IMG/VR virus record: IMGVR_UViG_3300029219_000180
Source of the DNA: a virus
Taxonomy: Duplodnaviria; Heunggongvirae; Uroviricota; Caudoviricetes
DNA length: 9,281 nt
Direction: 5' to 3' (one strand)
Part shown: in pieces, positions 1 through 9,223 of the stretch
How positions within the stretch are numbered: the stretch's first letter is position 1
Layout of the letters: each line of letters opens with the position of its first letter
The notes under the pieces: generated by a model
Database searches by the model: none
Told to the model about the DNA's origin: nothing
The model's input: the letters and a program-made list of their open reading frames with translations, nothing else
Program-made: the position numbers and the translations under genes

Positions 1-196
1 AGGTATGCCTGAAAGCGTGCGTATTGCCTGAAAACACAACCCGCTACGGGGGAGACTTACCCGAAATCTGATTTATTCAACAAAGCCACCTTTATGCCAT
101 AACTGAAGTTTATGTCTGTTATGAGCGATGAGCGGAAGTTCACTACTTCATGACTAACATTGAAGTGTCCTAAGCAACGGGGAGCAGCTCAAGGAG

Positions 197-222
197 TGTG
201 TTAGTGCAATTACACTAACACA
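197..222. repeat. Perfect inverted repeat: 10-bp stem (tgtgttagtg / cactaacaca) with 6-nt loop
   Basis: Read directly: 197-206 tgtgttagtg, loop caatta 207-212, 213-222 cactaacaca. Lies 37 bp 3' of the stop of the minus-strand 488-aa gene. The flanking A-run is on the plus strand, so it does not look like a classical terminator for the minus-strand gene. Confidence 0.5.
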
Positions 223-258: not shown

Positions 259-1725
259 CTATGCGCCTGGATTGGGTTCGATCATACTCAGCGTTTTTGC
301 TATTTTCTTAATCTCATCATCATTATCCAAAAAAGAGGCGTCTTTTATTACCACAGTACGCTCTTCTTGTAATAGCTCACCTATTTTTTCTTCTATAAAA
401 TCTAATGTTGGCATTATAATCTGGATGTCTCGAGAAAAAGTAGTTTTTGCATCTTCTATACTGTTGAATCCATTATGTATATGAGTGAATATTCTCTTTT
501 TAAACTGTATGTCTTCTGGATTTCCCACTAACTGACTGAAATCTCCTTTCATAACTCTTTCGCTTGTTTCAAAGAGCTGTATTGCTATCGAGTCGATTAA
601 TTCCTTTTTGGACAGAGATGCTTGTTCATAAAATTTGGTGACTAACTCTGTTGGCAACTTTCTTGAGACGACTTTAATGGACAGTCTCTGAAATAGGTAA
701 GGTGCCACCACGCCCACACTGAAAGGGTGAATCCTCCCTGGATTTAATAATTTTATTGTGACGTTTTCAAAAACTAGCTCATTGATTTTACTATTTATGA
801 ATTCCATTAAATACTTATCTAATGATAATGTTACCGACGCAACCGCTTCTATCACTTGTTTAAATGGCTCGCCTTTCAAGGATTTAAAAAACTCTTTGTT
901 ATAACCAAAGAAATCCACAAAACCTAAATTTATTCGATTTTCTTCTTTAGTATTTGAAATGCGAATTTGAAGTTGTTTTAAGTCTTCATCGGTCAAGTAT
1001 TTTAAACCATAGTCATCAAGCGCGTTACGTATAACTTTATCTGCAGATTCTAAGTCGATTACAGTTTTTACATTAAAAAACAATGATAACAATGAATCAT
1101 ACTTATGAACTCGCAAGGTTAAATCTGTTGCATTTGATGCGGTTACATTTATCCGTCTCAAAAGATCAATAACTTTACTAATTGGTAGGCTGTTTTCAAA
1201 AATTTTGAATGACTCGTATTCAGATACAACATCTTTTATATACTTACTGATAGTATCAGACTTTATTTCCACCTCAACTTCGGTTGAGTAAGAATGAATT
1301 AGTGAGTTTGTAGTTTCAGCGATGTCATTTGATACATACAACTTATATTCGAAACAATCAGGAGCGGGAAGCAAACTATTATCAATAATGGAAAACAATA
1401 AAAATTTAATTATTTCTCTTAATGCTTGCGGTCTAGTTATTCTACCTTGCATTTTTTTACATTGTATTAAACCACTTACAACACCGTTATGGTATAGCAC
1501 GCAGTCGCGTCCTCTTTCAGAAACTCCTTGCATTAAAGATATTGAGGATATATTTTTATGCTTTCCATCTTCAATTTCGTTCTTTACTAACAAATAACAT
1601 AGCAACTCAAATTCTCGATCACCTAATTCTGAAAAGGGAAGCAATCCGATACCAGAATCTATAGTCCATGGTCTATATCCTGATTGAGCCTCGATATTAA
1701 TTTGTTCGTCACTGATTTTTTTCAC
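259..1725 (-). CDS. Hypothetical protein with N-terminal Mrr-cat / PD-(D/E)xK-like (DUF4297-like) nuclease motif and uncharacterised C-terminal ~380 aa; candidate defence effector
   Basis: 488-codon ORF, by far the longest in the AT-rich block (~30% GC in sampled lines). Start codon is GTG (plus-strand cac at 1723-1725) preceded by Shine-Dalgarno AAGGAGA with 5-nt spacing. N-terminal residues 38-108 show the pattern FELLCYLL ... GVSERGRD (D74) ... LIQCKK (Q88, K90) ... RPQALREI, which matches the D...(E/Q)xK arrangement of Mrr-type restriction endonuclease catalytic domains. Family assignment is from motif recognition only. Confidence 0.8.
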   Translation of the reverse strand: MKKISDEQINIEAQSGYRPWTIDSGIGLLPFSELGDREFELLCYLLVKNEIEDGKHKNISSISLMQGVSERGRDCVLYHNGVVSGLIQCKKMQGRITRPQALREIIKFLLFSIIDNSLLPAPDCFEYKLYVSNDIAETTNSLIHSYSTEVEVEIKSDTISKYIKDVVSEYESFKIFENSLPISKVIDLLRRINVTASNATDLTLRVHKYDSLLSLFFNVKTVIDLESADKVIRNALDDYGLKYLTDEDLKQLQIRISNTKEENRINLGFVDFFGYNKEFFKSLKGEPFKQVIEAVASVTLSLDKYLMEFINSKINELVFENVTIKLLNPGRIHPFSVGVVAPYLFQRLSIKVVSRKLPTELVTKFYEQASLSKKELIDSIAIQLFETSERVMKGDFSQLVGNPEDIQFKKRIFTHIHNGFNSIEDAKTTFSRDIQIIMPTLDFIEEKIGELLQEERTVVIKDASFLDNDDEIKKIAKTLSMIEPNPGA

Positions 1726-1730
1726 TTAAA

Positions 1731-1737
1731 TCTCCTT
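1731..1737 (-). promoter_or_regulatory. Shine-Dalgarno (AAGGAGA) for the GTG-initiated 488-aa CDS
   Basis: Plus strand tctcctt at 1731-1737 is AAGGAGA on the minus strand, 5 nt upstream of the GTG at 1725-1723. Confidence 0.6.
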
Positions 1738-2040
1738 CTAATCTTATTGACCTACTCCCTACATTGTAACAGGGGATGATGATAAGGTGTATCTTTCGAG
1801 CTATAAGCACGATAAATAAGTGATTAAAAATGACTCTTTAAACTATTTTAATTTAAAAAATTAATTGTTAGTTCTAATTATGGTATGAGGGCATTTTCGG
1901 CATAGTTCTAACCATATACTTTGGTAAAAATGACTGTTACGGAACAGACCATAGTAATGCCTGCTATTGGCACGGAGCGGGCTGCCTGAGCGCCGTGGGG
2001 TCTGCAAACGGTAAGCATACCGATAACTATACGCTTGGCC

Positions 2041-2460
2041 TTAGTAACTTTTGCTCCCCTCAATAAATCCGCCATCTTTTATCGGACTGCAATGTCCTTC
2101 TTCATCAATCAGTTGCTCGTCTTTCAGGTAGGTATATCGATAGATAATTGAGCCATTATCCATCTCACCATTGGTTCGTTTCATTAGGAGAGTAAAATGT
2201 AACGGGCTGTCCCTATATCGAGCTATTCCATGAATATTGGCAAGTACCTCATATTGACGCTCAGGTGATAACCCTTTAAATACATCGAGATATCCATGGA
2301 ATGTTCCATAGAGTGAAGAAGTGTAGATCAGTCGCTGCTCTGGACCAGTAACTTTAAGAGTAATTTGTTCACCCGTATTACAGGTTAGCTTGGCGGGAAA
2401 TGTCTCAGCCTGAGCAGAAGAAATAGTCAAGCTTAAAATTATCAGGTAGCAATATTTCAT
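2041..2460 (-). CDS. Small secreted/periplasmic hypothetical protein (139 aa) with Sec-type signal peptide
   Basis: The six-frame ORF is 2041-2562, but the internal Met at 2460 starts a canonical signal peptide MKYCYLIILSLTISSAQA|ETF (basic n-region, hydrophobic core, AQA cleavage motif). The upstream 34 codons have no such logic. No strong SD at either start. Function not recognised. Confidence 0.55.
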   Translation of the reverse strand: MKYCYLIILSLTISSAQAETFPAKLTCNTGEQITLKVTGPEQRLIYTSSLYGTFHGYLDVFKGLSPERQYEVLANIHGIARYRDSPLHFTLLMKRTNGEMDNGSIIYRYTYLKDEQLIDEEGHCSPIKDGGFIEGSKSY

Positions 2461-2740
2461 GTGATTAGAATGTCCAAAACTAACATGTATACTCGGGATT
2501 CTATAACTAGTTGGATGTAGACCCAAGATGTATTGGACTATTCTTCGGTTGTAGTTGGTCAAATCATATATTTTATGTCAGCAATGTCTACTTTTGGCAC
2601 ATAGCAGACCAGAGACACTGGCGTAAAGCCATGGAGGATCGGTGGGAGGAGGTAAAAATCCTCTCATGCAAAAAATACGCAAAATCGATAACAGTTGGAA
2701 ATCATTCAATACTCGCACTATCGGAAGTTCACCAGCCAGT

Positions 2741-2778
2741 CGTAGCACGTTCTTGCATATGACGTGGCTACGGGTTTC
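2741..2778. repeat. Copy A of imperfect hairpin-containing direct repeat (cgtagcacg-loop-cgtggctacg-ggtttc)
   Basis: 2751-2778 tcttgcatatgacgtggctacgggtttc aligns with 3775-3800 tcttgcatacgacgtgctacggtttc (25 identical positions, two 1-nt indels, one mismatch). The upstream agcacg is also shared. Internal inverted repeat cgtagcacg / cgtggctacg. Confidence 0.7.
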
Positions 2779-2868
2779 GAGACCGACCCGATCATCAAAC
2801 GAAACATAAAATTAGCTCACATTATGAGGAAAGGTATCTTTTTGCGCTATGTAAATTCAAAGGGTTAG

Positions 2869-3738
<870 letters not shown>

Positions 3739-3761
3739 GTCTTTAAGTGATAAGCATAAAC

Positions 3762-3800
3762 CGCAGCACGATCTTCTTGCATACGACGTGCTACGGTTTC
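3762..3800. repeat. Copy B of the hairpin-containing direct repeat; candidate bidirectional terminator between convergent GIY-YIG and pin genes
   Basis: cgcagcacg-atcttcttgcatacga-cgtgctacg followed by gtttc. Lies between the GIY-YIG stop (3736-3738) and the pin stop (3799-3801), overlapping the latter. Confidence 0.65.
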
Positions 3801-4353
3801 ATTTATCTCCGACCGGAAACTTCTTATACAGTGTCGATATACCAACATCATAGATGATCGCCACCTTCTGGCGAGGAACGCCTGATGCAATTAATCGCCC
3901 GGCCTGCGCCCATTGTTCTGGTGTAAGTTTGGGACGACGTCCACCAATTCGTCCCTGTGCGCGAGCAGCTTCCAGTCCAGCTTTTGTTCGTTCAACAATC
4001 AGTTCTCGTTCCATTTCAGCCAGGGCACCCATGACATGAAAAAAGAAACGGCCCATTGGGGTACTGGTATCAATACTGTCAGTCAGGCTTCGGAAATTCA
4101 CGCCACGCTGGCGCAACTCTTCTATCAGCGTAACAAGATGCCGCATACTGCGCCCTAACCTGTCCAGCTTCCAGACAACCAGAGTGTCACCTGCCGATAA
4201 TGTCCTGAGCAGTTTTTTCAGTCCGGGCCTTTCGGACTTCGTACCGCTTATCTTGTCTTCAAAAATCAGTTCACATCCTACACAGTTCAACGCATTACGT
4301 TGTAGATCGGTGTTCTGGTCATTTGTTGATACGCGTACATAGCCAATAAGCAT
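3799..4353 (-). CDS. pin: Pin/Gin/Hin-family DNA invertase (serine recombinase)
   Basis: Protein from the internal Met ([18 protein letters not shown]...) has the resolvase/invertase N-terminal catalytic motif (YVRVST, catalytic Ser) and a C-terminal HTH ([41 protein letters not shown]). It is near-identical in pattern to E. coli e14 PinE as recalled. The ORF track extends to 4389, but the conserved start is the ATG at 4353. Confidence 0.93.
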
Positions 4354-4379
4354 GGTGGATCTCCCTGACAAAAGCAGGA

Positions 4380-4754
4380 ATGATGCCATTTGCTCGTTAT
4401 TTCTGCATTTTCATAAACGTTGGTTTGGGAGAAGCGGCAAAACGGAATGTGGGAACAGGGGAAAATCAGATACCTGATATGTCATCATATGCATCAGGTT
4501 CAGGCTGGCGAAAAATGCCAGATGGTTCAATTGAACAGTGGGGACGAATTAGTTTTCCTGGTGAACACGGGCCTGTATCCGCCAATGTTTCATTCCCGAT
4601 TCCATTTACACAGACACCGGGCATTGTAATTGTGTGCGATGGTGGTTTCGGGGGCGGGAATATGTGGGGGGCGACCAACTGGAGCACTACCGGCTTCATA
4701 GCTCACTGCAATTATGGTCTTGAAGGTGGTGCGTTTTTCGCTAAGGGCTGGTAA
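4380..4754 (+). CDS. Tail-fibre protein C-terminal variable segment (gene fragment lacking the constant N-terminal part; probably not expressed as annotated)
   Basis: Contains the motif [14 protein letters not shown], typical of phage tail-fibre receptor-binding C-termini (recalled W-x-K-L-P-x-G-x-I-x-Q-W-G pattern), and a Gly-rich tip. The reading frame runs through the gix-like site, as for invertible tail-fibre segments. No upstream constant region in the window. Stop overlaps the next start (TAATG). Confidence 0.55.
4408..4433. other. gix/hix-like 26-bp invertase crossover site
   Basis: TTTTCATAAACGTTGGTTTGGGAGAA matches the recalled Hin/Gin site consensus TTnTCnnAAACCnnGGTTTnnGAnAA at every specified position but one (C to G at position 12). 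Located about 55 bp from the pin start and inside the 5' end of the tail-fibre segment reading frame, as in Mu/P1/e14 invertible segments. Confidence 0.6.
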
Positions 4755-5251
4755 TGATGAAATATCTGTACGTAAACAACCTGGCATATCCTTACGAACT
4801 TCAGTCTCTTTATGTTGAAAAAGGTGAATGGCCTGAAGAAAAAGGTGTTGATATAGACGAAGTAATTTTCAGGGAATATTTCTATGATACACCACCAGAA
4901 GGAAAATACAGATGTGTCGGAGAGGATGGACTGCCTGCATGGGCAGACATCCCCGCGCAACTGAAACGCCTTCTTCCTGACTATAAACGGATGGAAGAAA
5001 AAATAGACGCCGTAATCCGTGAGAAATACGGGTTACCCCCGGTTATGAGCACGCCCGTGAAATATGCCGATCTCATCATGCTGGCAACCGAACGCCGCGA
5101 TCTCGGGCTTGATGATGGCTCTTTCTGGCCTCTACTGGAAGGTATCCCAGCAACAGAGATGTTCAAAGTTATTCCACTGTCGCCAGGCCATGCCTACGGG
5201 ATGTTTATGGAACGTTTTAACGAGTTATCGGAGTTACGCAAATGCGCATGA
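4754..5251 (+). CDS. Hypothetical phage protein (positionally a tail-fibre assembly/chaperone candidate)
   Basis: 165-aa ORF translationally coupled to the tail-fibre segment (TAATG) with an AAGGG SD-like sequence upstream. Sequence does not show the conserved Tfa C-terminus I recall, so the function is by position only. Confidence 0.55.
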   Translation: MMKYLYVNNLAYPYELQSLYVEKGEWPEEKGVDIDEVIFREYFYDTPPEGKYRCVGEDGLPAWADIPAQLKRLLPDYKRMEEKIDAVIREKYGLPPVMSTPVKYADLIMLATERRDLGLDDGSFWPLLEGIPATEMFKVIPLSPGHAYGMFMERFNELSELRKCA

Positions 5252-5604
5252 ATGTTTTCGAAATGGAAGGGTTTCTTCGCGGGAAATGTGTACCGCGAGA
5301 TCTGAAAGTGAATGAAACGGATGCTGAATACCTGGTGCGTAAATTCGATGCGCTTGAAGCTAAATGTGCGGCACTGGAAAACAAAGTAATACCAGTGTCA
5401 ACTGAACTGCCACCAGCAAATGAAAGTGTTTTGTTATTCGATGCTAACGGAGAAGGCTGGCTAATTGGCTGGCGTTCTCTCTGGTACACCTGGGGACAAA
5501 AAGAAACCGGAGACTGGCAGTGGACATTTCAGGTCGGGGACCTTGAAAACGTCAATATCACTCACTGGGCAGTAATGCCAAAAGCACCGGAGGCTGGAGC
5601 ATAA
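5242..5604 (+). CDS. DUF551-like phage protein
   Basis: C-terminal region WYTWGQKETGDWQWTF...ITHWAVMPKAPE resembles the DUF551 signature (Trp-rich, ending ThW-x-P-x-P) found in enterobacterial prophage early regions. GGAG SD 8 nt upstream; overlaps the previous stop. Confidence 0.65.
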   Translation: MRMNVFEMEGFLRGKCVPRDLKVNETDAEYLVRKFDALEAKCAALENKVIPVSTELPPANESVLLFDANGEGWLIGWRSLWYTWGQKETGDWQWTFQVGDLENVNITHWAVMPKAPEAGA

Positions 5605-5909
5605 TGACCACTTTTACCGACAAAGAACTGATTAAAGAAATCAAAGAGCGTATCAGCAGCCTTGACGTGCGAGACGATATTGAGCGCCGTGCTTATGAAA
5701 TCGCACTCCTATCTCTGGAAGTAGAGCCAGATGAACGCGAATCCTATGAATTATTTATGGAAAAACGTTTCGGTGGCTTAGTAGATAGTCGGAGAGCAAA
5801 AAACGGCGATAACGAATACATGGCATGGGATATGACTCTCGGTTGGATCGTCTGGCAACAACGAGCTGGCATTCATTTTTCAACAATATCACAGCAAGAG
5901 GTGAAATAA
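5604..5909 (+). CDS. Hypothetical phage protein (101 aa)
   Basis: ORF with a TGGAG SD-like sequence upstream. Start overlaps the DUF551 stop (TAATG) and its stop overlaps the xis start (TAATG), so it is translationally coupled within the operon. Confidence 0.55.
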   Translation: MTTFTDKELIKEIKERISSLDVRDDIERRAYEIALLSLEVEPDERESYELFMEKRFGGLVDSRRAKNGDNEYMAWDMTLGWIVWQQRAGIHFSTISQQEVK

Positions 5910-6259
5910 TGGAACCATACAGCCTCACGCTAGATGAGGCCTGTCATTTTCTCAAGATATCCAGACCGACTGCCATTAACTGGATACGCACAGGGCGTCT
6001 GCAGGCAACACGCAAAGATCCCACTAAGAATAAATCTCCTTACCTCACAACACGACAAGCCTGCATTGCGGCGCTTCAGTCTCCGCTGCATACTGTCCAG
6101 GTGAGCGCGGGTGATGGCATAACAGAGGAAAGAAAATGTCACTCTTCCGCAGAGGTGAAATATGGTACGCCAGTTTCACATTGCCGAACGGTAAAAGATT
6201 TAAACAGTCTCTTGGAACAAAGGACAAAAGGCAGGCGACAGAACTCCATGACAAGCTAA
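5909..6259 (+). CDS. xis: Excisionase / AlpA-family DNA-binding protein (P22 Xis-like)
   Basis: From the ATG at 5909 (GAGGTGA SD upstream): [31 protein letters not shown]..., an HTH typical of excisionases, located immediately upstream of int. Its 3' end overlaps int by 124 nt in another frame. Confidence 0.75.
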
Positions 6260-7299
6260 AGGCTGAAGCATGGCGGGTCAGCAAACTTGGTGAAATTCCT
6301 GATATAACGTTCGAGGAAGCGTGTGTCAGGTGGCTTGAAGAGAAAGCACATAAAAAATCACTGGACGATGACAAAAGCCGGATCGGATTCTGGCTTCAAC
6401 ATTTCGCAGGAATGCAACTAAGAGACATTACTGAATCAAAAATTTATTCAGCAATGCAGAAAATGACGAACCGGCGTCATGAGGAAAACTGGAAACTCAG
6501 GGCAGAAGCATGCAGAAAAAAAGGGAAACCTGTTCCAGAATACACGCCAAAACCAGCGTCCGTTGCAACGAAGGCTACGCATCTTTCATTTATAAAGGCC
6601 CTGCTAAGAGCCGCAGAGCGTGAATGGAAAATGCTGGATAAGGCACCAATTATTAAAGTGCCTCAACCAAAGAATAAACGGATCCGCTGGCTGGAGCCTC
6701 ATGAAGCACAAAGGCTGATTGATGAATGTCCGGAGCCATTAAAGTCTGTTGTTGAATTTGCACTTGCAACAGGCTTAAGACGCTCGAACATCATCAACCT
6801 TGAATGGCAACAAATAGACATGCAGCGCCGGGTGGCATGGATAAACCCGGAAGAGAGTAAATCAAACCGCGCAATTGGCGTTGCGCTGAATGATACTGCA
6901 TGTCGCGTATTGAAAAAACAAATCGGGAATCATCACCGTTGGGTATTTGTGTATAAGGAAAGCTGTACCAAACCAGACGGAACGAAAGCGCCAACAGTCA
7001 GGAAGATGCGGTATGACGCAAACATAGCCTGGAAAGCGGCGCTGAGACGAGCAGGTATTGATGATTTCAGATTTCACGACTTGAGACACACCTGGGCAAG
7101 TTGGCTGGTTCAAGCCGGAGTCCCGTTATCAGTGTTACAGGAAATGGGAGGCTGGGAGTCTATCGAAATGGTTCGTCGATATGCTCACCTCGCACCTAAT
7201 CACCTTACCGAACACGCACGGCAAATAGACTCGATTCTGAACCCATCGGTCCCAAATTTGTCCCAGTCAAGAAATAAGGAAGGTACTAATGATGTGTAA
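6136..7299 (+). CDS. int: Tyrosine-type phage integrase (P22-like)
   Basis: N-terminus [34 protein letters not shown] is typical of P22-family integrases. Catalytic residues present: [14 protein letters not shown] (Arg), [10 protein letters not shown] (H-x-x-R), MVRRYAHL (Tyr). GAGGAAAG SD upstream. A tRNA-Thr att core follows directly. Confidence 0.93.
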
Positions 7300-7313
7300 C
7301 TTATTGATTTAAA

Positions 7314-7362
7314 TGGTGCCGATAATAGGAGTCGAACCTACGACCTTCGCATTACGAATGCG
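7314..7362 (-). other. Attachment-site core: 3'-terminal 49 nt of tRNA-Thr(CGU) (partial tRNA, not a functional gene)
   Basis: Reverse complement reads CGCATTCGTAATGCGAAGGTCGTAGGTTCGACTCCTATTATCGGCACCA: anticodon loop with CGT, T-arm GGTTCGACTCC and acceptor 3' strand with CCA. The flanking sequence at 7363-7390 does not encode the D-arm or 5' acceptor strand, so the tRNA is incomplete. Confidence 0.8.
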
Positions 7363-7450
7363 TAAATTGATCTTGTAAAATCAATACCTATCGAATTTAA
7401 ATGGATTTTTTGCCACAATATTGCCACAGTTCGTTAGGAATCAGACAGAA

Positions 7451-8524
7451 ATGGCGACTATACGCAAACGTGGTAACTACCAATGGGAAGCTCAAATCCG
7501 TAAACGTGGTTTTCCCTCTCAAACCAAAACCTTTAACACCAAAGTAGAAGCAGAAGCTTGGGCCAAAATGATCGAGTCAGAAATGGCGAGAGGAGTTTGG
7601 CTTAGCCGCAGCGAAGCGGAATCTACGACATTGTATGAAGCCCTAACGCGATATGAAAAAGAGATTGTTCCCGACAAAAAAGGGGCAGTGCAAGACCGAT
7701 CATTGGTGCGGATACTAAAAGGCACTCAGCTGGCGAAAAACTATATGGCCAGCATCAGGAGTGCCGATGTCGCCAAGCTGAGAGATGAATGGTTGAAAAT
7801 CTATGCTCCTGCAACCGTTTTAAGGCGTTTGGCCTTACTTTCTCATGTATTCAATGTTTCGCGGAAAGAATGGGGCATGGAGAGCCTGCTGAACCCCGTA
7901 GAGGCCATTCGCAAACCCCAACCCAAGAACTCCAGGACCAGACGCCTGGAAGCGCTGCCTGTAGTTTCTGAGAAAACCGGTGTTACGTCAGGAAAGCAAA
8001 TAGCCAACGAGATCGAACATATCATCGCCGCAACACATTCATTAGTATTGCCAGCAATCATTCTTCTGGCGTTAGAGACAGCCATGCGCCGTAGCGAAAT
8101 CGCAGAGCTTCGATGGCGCTTTATCGATCTTGATCGGCGAGTTGCACATCTGCCGGATACTAAGAATGGTAATGCCCGCGATGTCCCTTTATCAACGAAA
8201 GCCATTACGATACTGTCCAGTCTCAAGGAACATTCTAAGCCAGCTGCTGATAAGGTTTTTGATATGCGTGCAGACGCGATTACCCGAGCTTTTGACCGAG
8301 CTGTAAAACGAGCCAGAGAACGATACGAGAAAACAAACTCATTATGTGATGAATCTTTCCTTAAAGATTTAAGATTTCATGACCTTCGACATGAAGCAAC
8401 TTCTCGACTTGCTGAAATTTTCCCTATGCATGAACTAACCAAAATTACAGGACATAAAGATCCAAGAATGCTAATGCGGTATTATCATCCAAAAGCTGAA
8501 GATTTGGCGTTAAAGTTGAAATAA
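7451..8524 (+). CDS. Tyrosine-type site-specific recombinase/integrase (second, distinct family)
   Basis: From the ATG at 7451 (the ORF-track M at 7421 is a TTG): MATIRKRGNYQWEAQIRKRG N-terminus typical of island integrases. Catalytic residues present: ETAMRRSEIAELRW (Arg), HDLRHEATSRL (H-x-x-R), RMLMRYYH (Tyr). Unrelated in sequence to the upstream P22-like int. Confidence 0.88.
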   Translation: MATIRKRGNYQWEAQIRKRGFPSQTKTFNTKVEAEAWAKMIESEMARGVWLSRSEAESTTLYEALTRYEKEIVPDKKGAVQDRSLVRILKGTQLAKNYMASIRSADVAKLRDEWLKIYAPATVLRRLALLSHVFNVSRKEWGMESLLNPVEAIRKPQPKNSRTRRLEALPVVSEKTGVTSGKQIANEIEHIIAATHSLVLPAIILLALETAMRRSEIAELRWRFIDLDRRVAHLPDTKNGNARDVPLSTKAITILSSLKEHSKPAADKVFDMRADAITRAFDRAVKRARERYEKTNSLCDESFLKDLRFHDLRHEATSRLAEIFPMHELTKITGHKDPRMLMRYYHPKAEDLALKLK

Positions 8525-8533
8525 GGACGTTGT

Positions 8534-9223
8534 ATGGATTATAAAAATAAGTTAGTTGATGCATCACCAAAATTAAACAACCCTCAACTATTGGCTATAA
8601 TATACTTAATACCTTTTGGATACTTGATTGTAGAAAACCCATTATGGCTAGAAAATATATACATTGCCGCTCCAATTTTCCTATCATCTATAGCTTTATT
8701 AACCAGTGTATACATAGGATATCGTGATTTATTAAATAAAGTATTTAATAATGCAGTAGTTAAATGGGGCGTAACTGGCTTTACATATTCCGTATGCTTA
8801 TGGATCGCAAAGTTTAAGCTTGACATAGCTTATGGTATAGTCCCAGAAAACCTTAATTACTCGACATTAGCTTATGCTTTCATGCTCTCATTTCCAATAG
8901 GGGCAATGATTTGTGCAATTACAGTCTATATATACATATTTTTGCGAGATGTATCCCCAGCAAAAATAGTAATATCCTCTATGATTTCAGTATATATTGG
9001 AAGCTTGGCTCAACATCATATACAGGTGAACAATCTTCCTGAAAAAATAATATTAATAGGACTTATAATTATGGTCCCCTATAACATGGTCAATTTAGCT
9101 AGTTCATTAGTTATTAAAAGGAAATTTAATTTTAATCGTTTAGTATCAGGCTTATCCCTTTTTGCTGTGTCAGTTGCTCTTTTTATTATTAGCATGACAG
9201 CGGTAATGACTCCAACTTATTGA
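8534..9223 (+). CDS. Polytopic inner-membrane protein of unknown function (229 aa), very AT-rich
   Basis: AAGGA SD 6 nt upstream of the ATG, 9 bp after the integrase stop. About five or six hydrophobic helix-length segments (e.g. LLAIIYLIPFGYLIV, IYIAAPIFLSSIALLTSVYIGY, AMICAITVYIYIFL, IILIGLIIMVPY, LSLFAVSVALFIISMTAV). About 23% GC in a sampled line. Confidence 0.7.
   Translation: MDYKNKLVDASPKLNNPQLLAIIYLIPFGYLIVENPLWLENIYIAAPIFLSSIALLTSVYIGYRDLLNKVFNNAVVKWGVTGFTYSVCLWIAKFKLDIAYGIVPENLNYSTLAYAFMLSFPIGAMICAITVYIYIFLRDVSPAKIVISSMISVYIGSLAQHHIQVNNLPEKIILIGLIIMVPYNMVNLASSLVIKRKFNFNRLVSGLSLFAVSVALFIISMTAVMTPTY

What the first reader, a model, noticed from the sequence alone, without database searches (positions are those of the whole stretch)
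259..1725. Orphan 488-aa protein: Mrr-cat-like nuclease head fused to an unknown ~380-aa domain, in a defence-cargo position
Seen in sequence: residues 38-108 carry FELLCYLL...ERGRD...LIQCKK...RPQALREI, the D...(E/Q)xK pattern of Mrr-type restriction endonuclease folds. The remaining ~380 aa match nothing I recognise. The gene is strongly AT-rich (~30% GC) next to ~60% GC prophage DNA, and uses GTG with a strong SD. Established knowledge: nuclease heads of this type are fused to sensor domains in anti-phage effectors (e.g. nuclease-SAVED Cap4 of CBASS, Lamassu LmuA), but those work with partner genes (CD-NTase, SMC-like ATPase). No such partner is present on the same strand in the window. Inference: this may be a single-gene abortive-infection or defence effector with a novel sensor domain, or part of a system whose partner lies left of the window.
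Basis: partly seen in the sequence, partly recalled or inferred. Interest (0 to 1): 0.8.

Follow-up and report, generated by a model that had tools for sequence, protein, structure and literature searches.

The report
Candidate single-gene anti-phage nuclease
A rare, horizontally mobile gene carried by E. coli prophages joins a DNA-cutting head of the Mrr / Lamassu-LmuA type to a helical domain with no detectable relative outside this family, and its neighbourhoods across bacteria point to an untested one-gene anti-phage defence.

Summary
The 488-aa ORF (259-1725, minus strand, GTG start, AAGGAG Shine-Dalgarno) is a real gene under purifying selection (dN/dS 0.10-0.16). It is not an orphan. 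At least 120 full-length homologue clusters occur in Proteobacteria, Campylobacterota, Desulfobacterota and Bacteroidota.

It has two modules:
- Residues 246-488 form an all-helical domain with no relative in PDB, BFVD or Pfam.

No neighbour is conserved across 18 genome loci, so the gene stands alone. It is AT-rich cargo in several settings:
- E. coli: the slot beside pinE that holds mcrA in e14, 1.2 kb from the validated defence gene PD-T4-3.
- P2-like prophages: alone between gpS and gpV.
- Other bacteria: beside Gabija, restriction-modification and Abi genes.

The helical domain also occurs behind a different, DUF4062-like head, as expected of a modular immune protein. The most likely function is a single-gene defence nuclease controlled by its C-domain. 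This is untested.

The parts
259..1725 (-). Complete CDS, 488 aa plus stop (stop codon 259-261). It equals RefSeq WP_000723924.1, 'hypothetical protein'.
   Evidence: dN/dS is 0.10-0.16 against the Pantoea and Pectobacterium orthologues.
1732..1737 (-). Shine-Dalgarno AAGGAG, 6 nt upstream of the GTG start at 1725-1723.
   Evidence: Read. The start position agrees with the N-termini of the homologues.
1763..1771 (-). Possible extended -10 promoter element TGTTACAAT, about 37 nt upstream of the start. This is inference only.
   Evidence: Read. The consensus scan found no canonical -35/-10 pair in the 315-bp AT-rich intergenic region 1726-2040.
1012..1725 (-). N-module, residues 1-238: a conserved N-terminal lead (1-35), the PD-(D/E)xK core, and a helical extension (136-238).
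   Evidence: AF2 model. A PADLOC LmuA model matches residues 36-181. P0120 shares exactly residues 1-233.
1333..1620 (-). PD-(D/E)xK nuclease core, residues 36-131, with alpha-beta-beta-beta-alpha-beta topology. Catalytic codons: E40 at 1606-1608, D74 at 1504-1506, Q88 at 1462-1464, K90 at 1456-1458.
991..1011 (-). Inter-module linker, residues 239-245.
   Evidence: pLDDT is below 50 at residues 240-245. The domain-swap boundaries in P0120 and P0205 fall here.
262..990 (-). C-module, residues 246-488. It is all-helical with one small beta-hairpin (R264-G274, 'RINLGFVDFFGY'), acidic and soluble. Conserved residues: D246, R255, R264, G268, D271, G274, Y343, R347, D395, S397, H417, D433, E445, T457, D462.
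197..222 (.). 26-bp palindrome TGTGTTAGTGCAA/TTACACTAACACA, 37 nt downstream of the stop codon. It could be a transcript-end hairpin or an operator; its function is not tested.
   Evidence: The terminator consensus scan found nothing.

Best explanation
The gene encodes a soluble, stand-alone, two-module protein that most likely acts as a single-gene anti-phage (anti-invader) DNA nuclease.

Shown here:
- The N-module is a PD-(D/E)xK DNase of the Mrr type with an intact, invariant active site (E40, D74, Q88-x-K90). Its closest sequence relatives are the effector heads of Lamassu LmuA proteins.
- The C-module is a separately folding helical domain with no detectable relative outside this family. 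It is under the same purifying selection as the head, and it also occurs behind at least one other effector-like head (DUF4062-like).
- The gene travels alone as AT-rich cargo of prophages, plasmids and defence islands.

Inferred:
- The C-module holds the nuclease inactive until it meets an infection cue, such as a phage protein or an abnormal DNA or replication product.
- It then drives self-association, so that two heads form a working cleavage site. This follows what is described for LmuA tetramers and for the Cap4 and Avs heads.
- DNA is then degraded, which either destroys the invader or kills the infected cell (abortive infection).
- In this reading the protein does in one chain what Lamassu does with LmuA plus the SMC-like sensor LmuB/LmuC.
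For: Nuclease head:
- The catalytic residues are invariant across the family.
- The AF2 model (pLDDT 85.8) has the canonical alpha-beta-beta-beta-alpha-beta order.
- Mrr_cat matches 17 of 37 members, best E 5.7e-6.
- PADLOC LmuA model PDLC03852 matches 31 of 37 members, best E 2.1e-9.

Stand-alone gene:
- No neighbour family is shared among 18 genome loci.
- In intact P2-like prophages it is the only insert between gpV and gpS.

Mobile and defence context:
- E. coli: pinE, then PD-T4-3 (E 2.7e-140), then this gene. This is the slot that holds the Type IV enzyme McrA in K-12 e14 and an AraC regulator in other strains.
- Gabija lies directly upstream in a Pseudomonas locus.
- LmuB, Avs-like, BrxH/PsyrT-like and PN-effector neighbours occur in other loci.
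- OLD-like and retron-like genes lie in a P2/186-type remnant.
- Nine IMG/VR viral contigs carry a relative, as does a conjugative Agrobacterium plasmid.
- Distant variants sit beside GmrSD, ImmA/IrrE and ParE.

Modularity:
- P0120 has the same head with a different tail.
- P0205 and P0276-P0278 have a DUF4062-like head on the same tail. They sit beside Type ISP and Type III restriction-modification, Abi_2 and ToxN genes.

Selection and foreign origin:
- dN/dS is 0.10-0.16 on both halves, and the gene is 9-20 GC points below its flanks in the five other hosts checked and 12 points below the rest of this window.

Mechanistic analogy:
- LmuA is activated by tetramerisation through its C-terminal domain (PMC12663957).
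Against: - There is no experimental evidence of any kind. No paper mentions the protein, and every public annotation is 'hypothetical protein', 'DUF4297 domain-containing' or 'restriction endonuclease'.
- The role of the C-module (sensor, oligomerisation or autoinhibition) rests on analogy only. Its fold matches nothing informative.
- The query itself fails the Pfam and NCBIfam thresholds.
- No match was found in 50,697 GenBank phage records.
- Some loci, such as Pantoea L002 and Pectobacterium L056, are flanked mostly by metabolic genes.
- A branch with a destroyed active site is fixed in a housekeeping synteny between prfC and wecG. The C-module may therefore have a cellular, non-defence use.
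- Five of the 30 E. coli genomes that carry the gene have it disrupted. This fits either an autoimmunity cost or dispensability.
Confidence: 0.6

Rival explanations
1. It is a Type IV-like restriction endonuclease. The nuclease would be constitutively competent, and the C-module would read a DNA modification or structure, so modified phage or plasmid DNA is cut directly without abortive infection.
For: - It occupies the slot that holds the Type IV enzyme McrA in e14.
- It stands alone with no methyltransferase neighbour.
- Some public records call homologues 'restriction endonuclease'.
Against: - No recognisable modified-base or DNA reader was found: no Mrr_N winged helix, SRA or other DNA-binding family in Pfam across 37 members.
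- All three segments are acidic, with median pI 4.9-5.7.
- The same C-module is joined to a non-nuclease, DUF4062-like head. That is hard to reconcile with a pure DNA-targeting domain.
Confidence: 0.17
2. It is an orphaned Lamassu / ABC-three-component effector. It would still need an SMC-like ATPase (LmuB, with or without LmuC) encoded elsewhere in the genome to be activated.
For: - The head is homologous to LmuA heads.
- One locus (L022) has an LmuB gene 2.3 kb away.
- Some E. coli strains carry an ABC-3C system elsewhere.
Against: - Apart from L022, no neighbour scored one by one matched LmuB, and in the pooled scans of 122 neighbours from 17 loci only two proteins matched an LmuB or SMC_N model, one of them the L022 protein.
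- The L022 copy of the gene is itself a pseudogene split in two.
- The LmuA model match stops at position 167 of 336, so the LmuB/C-binding C-terminal domain is absent.
- In P2-like prophages the gene is inserted alone. A trans requirement would defeat mobility.
Confidence: 0.05
3. It is a selfish or phage-serving nuclease rather than host defence. Possible roles are an addiction or toxin module, a weapon against competing plasmids or mobile elements, or a nuclease used by the prophage during its own lytic cycle.
For: - It is carried by prophages at moron sites and by a conjugative plasmid.
- Copies in E. coli are often disrupted, which hints at a cost.
- It is rare, present in 30 of 5,426 genomes.
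Against: - No antitoxin-like conserved small neighbour exists, and no RNA or repeat antitoxin was found.
- It is transcribed opposite to the flanking late operons in P2-like phages, as expected of lysogen-expressed morons.
- Many copies lie in non-phage defence islands next to Gabija, restriction-modification, Abi and ToxN genes.
Confidence: 0.1
4. It is a cellular DNA repair, recombination or other housekeeping factor that merely happens to be mobile in some lineages.
For: A distant branch (P0186, P0207, P0220) keeps one fixed position between prfC and a WecG-type glycosyltransferase in different Bacteroidota-like genomes.
Against: - That branch has lost the catalytic residues.
- The active clade shows no synteny at all.
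- The gene is compositionally foreign in every host examined.
- It is patchy, present in 0.55% of complete E. coli genomes.
- It is embedded in mobile elements.
Confidence: 0.05

Closest known systems
LmuA, the effector subunit of Lamassu (Mrr-type subgroup; PADLOC model PDLC03852)
   Same: - The overall layout is the same: an effector head at the N-terminus and a helical regulatory domain at the C-terminus.
- The heads are swappable.
   Different: - There is no LmuB or LmuC partner.
- It is longer: 243 aa against roughly 170 aa left in the 336-position LmuA model after the match ends at position 167.
- The protein must therefore sense and activate on its own.
Mrr_cat (PF04471) nucleases and Type IV restriction enzymes (Mrr; the nuclease domains of MspJI and AspBHI; AF1548, PDB 1y88)
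   Same: - Same fold and same catalytic motif.
- A stand-alone gene without a methyltransferase.
- It sits where e14 carries the Type IV enzyme McrA.
   Different: - The nuclease is N-terminal rather than C-terminal.
- There is no winged-helix or SRA reader domain.
- The query itself is below the Pfam threshold.
- McrA is an HNH enzyme, so the two share only the genomic slot, not ancestry (own knowledge).
Cap4 (nuclease-SAVED effector of CBASS) and the CARF nucleases Card1, Can2 and Cdn1
   Different: - The C-module is all-helical. It is not SAVED or CARF, and no Pfam hit to either was found.
- No cyclase or CRISPR genes lie nearby.
Avs (STAND) proteins with N-terminal Mrr-like nuclease heads
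   Different: - There is no NTPase: no Walker A motif in any of 37 members.
- There is no TPR-like sensor.
- It is a quarter to a third of their size (the Avs chains matched are 1,540 and 2,028 residues).

Membership tests
PD-(D/E)xK nuclease superfamily / Mrr_cat (PF04471) | Core fold alpha-beta-beta-beta-alpha-beta, similar to solved members | tested here: met
   [not shown]
PD-(D/E)xK nuclease superfamily / Mrr_cat (PF04471) | Catalytic E ... D ... (D/E/Q)xK residues at the canonical positions | tested here: met
   E40 lies in helix 1, D74 at the start of strand 2, and Q88-C-K90 in strand 3. All are invariant. The motif is kept in 161 of 167 full-length family proteins.
PD-(D/E)xK nuclease superfamily / Mrr_cat (PF04471) | Profile match at or above Pfam's gathering score | tested here: inconclusive
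   The query shows no Mrr_cat hit even at E<=10. Seventeen of 37 homologues hit at E<0.1, best 5.7e-6. P0107 and P0250 carry a precomputed PF04471 assignment.
PD-(D/E)xK nuclease superfamily / Mrr_cat (PF04471) | Metal-dependent DNA cleavage | not testable with these tools
   This needs purified protein.
Lamassu LmuA | Effector head homologous to LmuA heads | tested here: met
   PADLOC PDLC03852 matches 31 of 37 members, best E 2.1e-9. The query scores E 0.0036 over residues 36-181.
Lamassu LmuA | LmuA C-terminal domain that binds LmuB/LmuC | tested here: not met
   [not shown]
Lamassu LmuA | Adjacent SMC-like ATPase LmuB (with or without LmuC) in one operon | tested here: not met
   No neighbour family is conserved in 18 loci. 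Among the neighbours scored one by one, LmuB was found only in L022, 2.3 kb away from a pseudogenised copy. The gene is a solo insert in P2-like prophages.
CBASS Cap4 | SAVED sensor domain and a CD-NTase in the operon | tested here: not met
   No SAVED or DUF4297 Pfam hit in 37 members. The C-module is all-helical. No cyclase is among the neighbours.
Type IV modification-dependent restriction enzymes | Nuclease without a cognate methyltransferase | tested here: met
   No methyltransferase neighbour is conserved.
Type IV modification-dependent restriction enzymes | Recognisable reader of modified DNA (Mrr_N winged helix, SRA-like, etc.) | tested here: not met
   [not shown]
Type IV modification-dependent restriction enzymes | Cleavage depends on DNA modification | not testable with these tools
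   This needs phage and plasmid assays with defined modifications.
Avs / STAND NTPase sensors | Central P-loop NTPase | tested here: not met
   No Walker A motif in 37 of 37 members, and no NTPase Pfam hit.
Toxin-antitoxin module | Conserved adjacent antitoxin gene or RNA | tested here: not met
   No neighbour is conserved. Only 125 bp separate the gene from gpV in P2-like prophages. No Rfam hit and no tandem repeats.

The most novel reading that the evidence does not exclude
The C-terminal module would be a previously undescribed, self-contained trigger-sensing and oligomerisation domain that can drive different effector heads: the Mrr/LmuA-type nuclease here, and a DUF4062-like head in P0205 and P0276-P0278. 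That would define a new modular family of one-protein immune sensors. They would achieve with a single chain what Lamassu needs an SMC-like LmuB/LmuC machine for. The family would also include a branch, catalytically dead and fixed between prfC and wecG in Bacteroidota, that has been domesticated for a cellular role.
Probability: 0.4. Interest if true: 0.65.

Novelty: new variant of a known kind. Interest (0 to 1): 0.55.

Why it matters
If confirmed, this would be a new one-gene defence system. Its design is familiar (a nuclease head plus a regulatory tail), but its tail matches nothing in PDB, Pfam, BFVD or PADLOC.

- Trigger sensing: the tail would offer a new answer to how a nuclease effector is kept silent and then switched on without an ATPase, a second messenger or a partner protein.
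- Evolution of Lamassu: the family links Lamassu effector heads to a partner-free context, which bears on how Lamassu effectors are recruited and exchanged.
- Discovery of defence genes: two prophage cargo sites emerge as places to look for undescribed defence genes. These are the pin-proximal end of e14-like prophages and the gpS/gpV junction of P2-like phages.
- Practical use: a 488-aa self-contained inducible DNase with a definable trigger is a tractable model protein.

Tried and rejected
Searches that gave nothing:
- Direct profile searches of the query found nothing usable. Pfam gave only 2CompART at E 0.042, below its cut-off, NCBIfam found nothing, and PHROGs found nothing for this protein.
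- Sequence searches of the PDB with the protein, the full-length profile and the N-module profile found no nuclease. They gave only a repeated weak hit of residues 153-229 to 3mcs, a 'putative monooxygenase' (E 0.0015-0.004), which I treat as chance.
- A profile search with the N-module returned only fragments of the same family.
- Foldseek of the C-module against BFVD gave no hit better than E 0.4. The AFDB50 library was not available.
- Literature searches on the accession, DUF4297, Mrr-like single-gene systems, e14/pinE hotspots and two recent discovery papers found no description of this family.

Ideas considered and rejected:
- Weak PADLOC WYL hits (E 0.0025-0.0038 in 5 of 37 members) are treated as noise.
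- An RNA or repeat antitoxin, or a tRNA attachment site, in the window: none found.
- The upstream same-strand ORF (2041-2460) as a partner: it looks like a secreted small protein and is not found next to any homologue outside the E. coli block.
- A partner left of the window: that side holds an IS903B end here, and IS66 or the ykfI end of a CP4-type island in reference genomes.
Full report
**1. The observation**

The window holds an ORF at 259-1725 on the minus strand. It encodes 488 aa and starts at GTG. AAGGAG lies at 1737-1732, six bases upstream of the start. The start is credible because the Pantoea and Pectobacterium orthologues begin at the same residue, and Pectobacterium also uses GTG.

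The gene is 33.4% GC (GC3 28.8%). The rest of the window is 42-50% GC (45.7% over 2563-8524), not about 60%.

The gene is under purifying selection in both halves. dN/dS is 0.10-0.16 among the E. coli, Pantoea and Pectobacterium copies. It is therefore a real gene.

**2. Not an orphan**

The window is E. coli DNA, and the protein is WP_000723924.1, 'hypothetical protein'. The exact sequence is recorded on 681 contigs. It is present in 30 of 5,426 complete E. coli genomes, and five of those copies are disrupted by IS5, IS1 or a frameshift.

A protein search found 120 clusters of mostly full-length (about 484-488 aa) homologues down to 32% identity. They occur in Gamma-, Beta- and Alphaproteobacteria, Campylobacterota, Desulfobacterota-type MAGs and Bacteroidota.

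An exhaustive profile search with the C-terminal part found only 122 clusters at 50% identity among 1.84 billion representatives. Nearly all of the longer hits (about 440-500 aa) carry the domain at about residues 236-485; many of the rest are short fragments. The family is rare but widespread, and its architecture is fixed.

**3. Anatomy**

A 37-sequence alignment shows invariant D36, R37, F39, E40, R71-G-R-D-C75, Q88-C-K90, E104 and K107 in the first part. In the second part F216, F217, G240, D246, R255, G268, G274 and Y343 are invariant.

AlphaFold2 on this alignment gave pLDDT 85.8 and pTM 0.49, with a confidence dip at residues 240-245. Two natural chimeras give the same boundary:
- P0120 (691 aa) shares only residues 1-233, at 38% identity, and continues with an unrelated tail.
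- P0205 and P0276-P0278 (436-448 aa) share only the part from about residue 232 onward. That part is 37% identical to the tail of family member P0151. It sits behind a different head of about 170 aa.

The protein therefore has an N-module (1-238), a linker, and a C-module (246-488).

**4. The N-module is an Mrr/LmuA-type PD-(D/E)xK nuclease**

- *Fold.* The predicted order of elements (H36-52, E61-65, E75-79, E82-90, H98-114, E126-131) is the canonical alpha-beta-beta-beta-alpha-beta core. E40 lies on the first helix, D74 at the start of strand 2, and Q88-x-K90 on strand 3.
- *Pfam.* The query itself hits nothing in Pfam. Seventeen of 37 homologues hit Mrr_cat, best E 5.7e-6.
- *PADLOC.* The LmuA model PDLC03852 hits 31 of 37 members, best E 2.1e-9. 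The match covers query residues 36-181 and model positions 20-167 of 336.

The nearest sequence relatives are thus the effector heads of Lamassu LmuA proteins, and the similarity reaches into the helical extension.

**5. The C-module matches nothing known**

Modelled alone, it is confident (pLDDT 85.4, pTM 0.76). It is all-helical apart from one small hairpin, the conserved 'RINLGFVDFFGY'.

- Foldseek against BFVD gave nothing below E 0.4.
- Pfam, NCBIfam, PHROGs and PADLOC have no model for it.
- It is acidic (median pI 5.7) and has no membrane segment.
- Conserved polar residues (D246, R255, R264, D271, Y343, R347, D395, S397, H417, D433, E445, D462) suggest a specific binding or interface function. 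That is inference.

**6. It stands alone**

I took 18 genome loci from different genera and clustered all neighbouring ORFs within 8 kb. Apart from two closely related Pseudomonas loci (L014, L021), no neighbour family was shared by more than two loci.

In intact P2-like prophages of Kluyvera and related hosts, the 46%-identical homologue is the only insert between gpV and gpS. It lies on the opposite strand, 125 bp from gpV. No Rfam RNA, tRNA or tandem repeat is present in the window. That side is an IS903B end here, and IS66 or the ykfI end of a CP4-type island in reference genomes.

**7. Context: mobile and defence-associated**

In E. coli the order is tail-fibre genes, pinE, a GIY-YIG gene, a capsid fragment, a 139-aa ORF, then this gene. 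The GIY-YIG gene is PD-T4-3 (PADLOC E 2.7e-140, full length). By name this is one of the systems from the Vassallo et al. selection (PMC9519451), which lists a GIY-YIG nuclease among its validated domains.

In K-12 e14 the gene after pinE is mcrA, followed by the attachment site. In O157:H7 and other strains an AraC regulator follows PD-T4-3. The slot is therefore variable. PD-T4-3 is in 839 genomes and this gene in 30, so the two are independent cargo.

Elsewhere:
- Gabija GajA/GajB lies directly upstream in a Pseudomonas locus.
- An LmuB gene lies near a pseudogenised copy in L022. Other loci have an Avs1b-like gene, a BrxH/PsyrT-like helicase or a PN-superfamily effector.
- bSEFIR, mad3, PDC candidates and toxin-antitoxin genes appear among the pooled neighbours.
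- An OLD-like nuclease and a retron-like RT plus ATPase lie in a P2/186-type remnant.
- In Acinetobacter the gene lies in an island with PAAR, umuDC and an integrase.
- One homologue lies on a conjugative Agrobacterium plasmid.
- Nine IMG/VR viral contigs hold relatives, and one homologue cluster includes a record named Caudoviricetes.
- The gene is 9-20 GC points below its flanks in the five other hosts checked.

The chimeras are also in defence islands. The DUF4062-like-head variant sits next to a Type ISP restriction-modification enzyme, Abi_2, a Fic-like gene and ToxN, or next to a Type III restriction-modification system. P0155 sits with GmrSD, ImmA/IrrE and ParE.

**8. How it most likely works**

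Shown:
- an intact Mrr/LmuA-type DNase head;
- a separately folding, conserved C-module;
- no partner gene;
- swappable heads on the same C-module;
- mobile, defence-type neighbourhoods.

Inferred:
- the C-module controls the head.

For Lamassu, LmuA is inactive as a monomer and becomes a nuclease when its C-terminal domains assemble a tetramer that pairs two heads into one cleavage pocket (PMC12663957). Cap4, Card1/Can2 and Avs heads are likewise activated by oligomerisation (own knowledge).

By analogy I propose three steps. The C-module senses an infection cue. It then self-associates. The assembled heads degrade DNA. The outcome would be abortive infection or direct destruction of the invader. 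I put 0.6 on 'single-gene defence nuclease' and roughly half of that on the specific oligomerisation mechanism.

**9. Rivals**

- *Type IV-like restriction enzyme (0.17).* Favoured by the Mrr-type head, the McrA slot and the lack of a methyltransferase. Weakened by the absence of any reader fold, the acidic C-module, and the fusion of this C-module to a non-nuclease head.
- *Orphaned Lamassu effector needing LmuB in trans (0.05).* Disfavoured by the missing LmuA C-terminal domain and by solo carriage in phages.
- *Selfish or phage-serving nuclease (0.10).* Not excluded.
- *Housekeeping role (0.05).* Not excluded.

The housekeeping reading has one point in its favour. Three distant members (P0186, P0207, P0220) have lost the catalytic residues. 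All three sit between prfC and a WecG-type gene in Bacteroidota-like genomes. This looks like domestication of a dead branch.

**10. Comparison and novelty**

The protein works like a nuclease-plus-sensor immune effector (LmuA, Cap4, Avs heads). It is not a member of Lamassu (no LmuB/C, no LmuA C-terminal domain), CBASS (no SAVED, no cyclase), Avs (no NTPase) or the classical Type IV enzymes (no reader domain). See the membership table.

No PADLOC 2.0.0 model, solved structure or paper found here describes it. I could not run current DefenseFinder or DefensePredictor, so a recent name cannot be excluded. I rate it a new variant of a known kind, with interest 0.55. It is a well-supported candidate with a C-domain that matches nothing in the libraries searched and a clear experimental path. 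However, it belongs to a class in which many new members are reported every year.

Noticed in passing
window 2965-3738 (+): The GIY-YIG (LEM-3-like) gene 1.2 kb from the finding is PD-T4-3, a named E. coli anti-phage gene (PADLOC PDLC04031, E 2.7e-140, full length; phrog_5356). It is in 839 of 5,426 complete E. coli genomes, against 30 for the 488-aa gene, so the two are independent cargo.
   Followed up: yes
L025-L032 (proteins P0186, P0207, P0220): A distant branch of the family has lost the nuclease motif (GRD becomes GRI/GRL/GRM; QCK becomes FAR/LHM/CTR) but keeps the C-domain motifs. All three proteins lie in the same housekeeping synteny: prfC (RF3), this gene, then a WecG-type glycosyltransferase, with Hcp, YkuD_2 and PgpA upstream. 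It looks like a domesticated, catalytically dead lineage.
   Followed up: partly
Proteins P0205, P0276-P0278; loci L062-L064: A head-swap variant: a head of about 170 aa, 36% identical to P0348 (which carries PF13271, DUF4062), is fused to the same C-domain. It sits beside Type ISP or Type III restriction-modification, Abi_2, Fic-like and ToxN genes. P0147 (445 aa) may carry a third, unidentified head.
   Followed up: partly
L051-L053 and L033-L036: In P2-like prophages the homologues (45-46% identity) occupy the junction next to gpS. In intact phages that is between gpV and gpS, on the opposite strand. This site is distinct from the two P2 hotspots usually analysed (old/tin and Z/fun; own knowledge). 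It may be a third cargo site worth mining.
   Followed up: partly
window 8534-9223 (+): A second strongly AT-rich ORF (31.7% GC, 229 aa) lies just after the second integrase. By eye the sequence is a multi-pass membrane protein. It has no Pfam or PADLOC match and is probably another foreign cargo gene.
   Followed up: partly
window 5825-8524 (+): An HTH_17 (AlpA-type) ORF is followed by two tandem tyrosine recombinase genes (6136-7299 and 7421-8524). This right-hand part matches CPS-53/yfdS-type prophage remnants in other E. coli. No complete E. coli genome holds the whole window in one piece, so the source locus is a mosaic of prophage remnants.
   Followed up: partly
window 1-87: The left end of the window is the terminus of an IS903B-like (IS5 family) element, inserted about 170 bp downstream of the gene's stop codon. 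Reference genomes have IS66 or the ykfI end of a CP4-type island there instead.
   Followed up: yes
E. coli genomes H60, H86, H88, H89, H90: Five of the 30 E. coli genomes with the gene carry a disrupted copy: an IS5 insertion, an IS1 insertion, and three copies annotated as two ORFs (apparent frameshifts). The copy in Pantoea sp. Eser (L022) is also split in two. This fits a fitness cost, but also dispensability.
   Followed up: partly
window 2041-2460 (-): The 139-aa ORF between PD-T4-3 and the finding starts with a signal-peptide-like stretch (MKYCYLIILSLTISSAQAE). It has no family match except a weak PHROG hit (E 0.009). It accompanies the 488-aa gene only within the E. coli block.
   Followed up: partly
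L060 (E. coli O157:H7 FRIK2533), locus 247-1947: About 4 kb beyond the same PD-T4-3 slot, O157:H7 carries an integrase-linked ABC-three-component system (AAA ATPase, middle component 2, ABC-3C protein). This is the wider family to which Lamassu-type effectors belong (own knowledge).
   Followed up: no
window 197-222: A 26-bp near-perfect palindrome lies just downstream of the gene's stop codon. It is not followed by a T-run, so it is not a canonical terminator.
   Followed up: no
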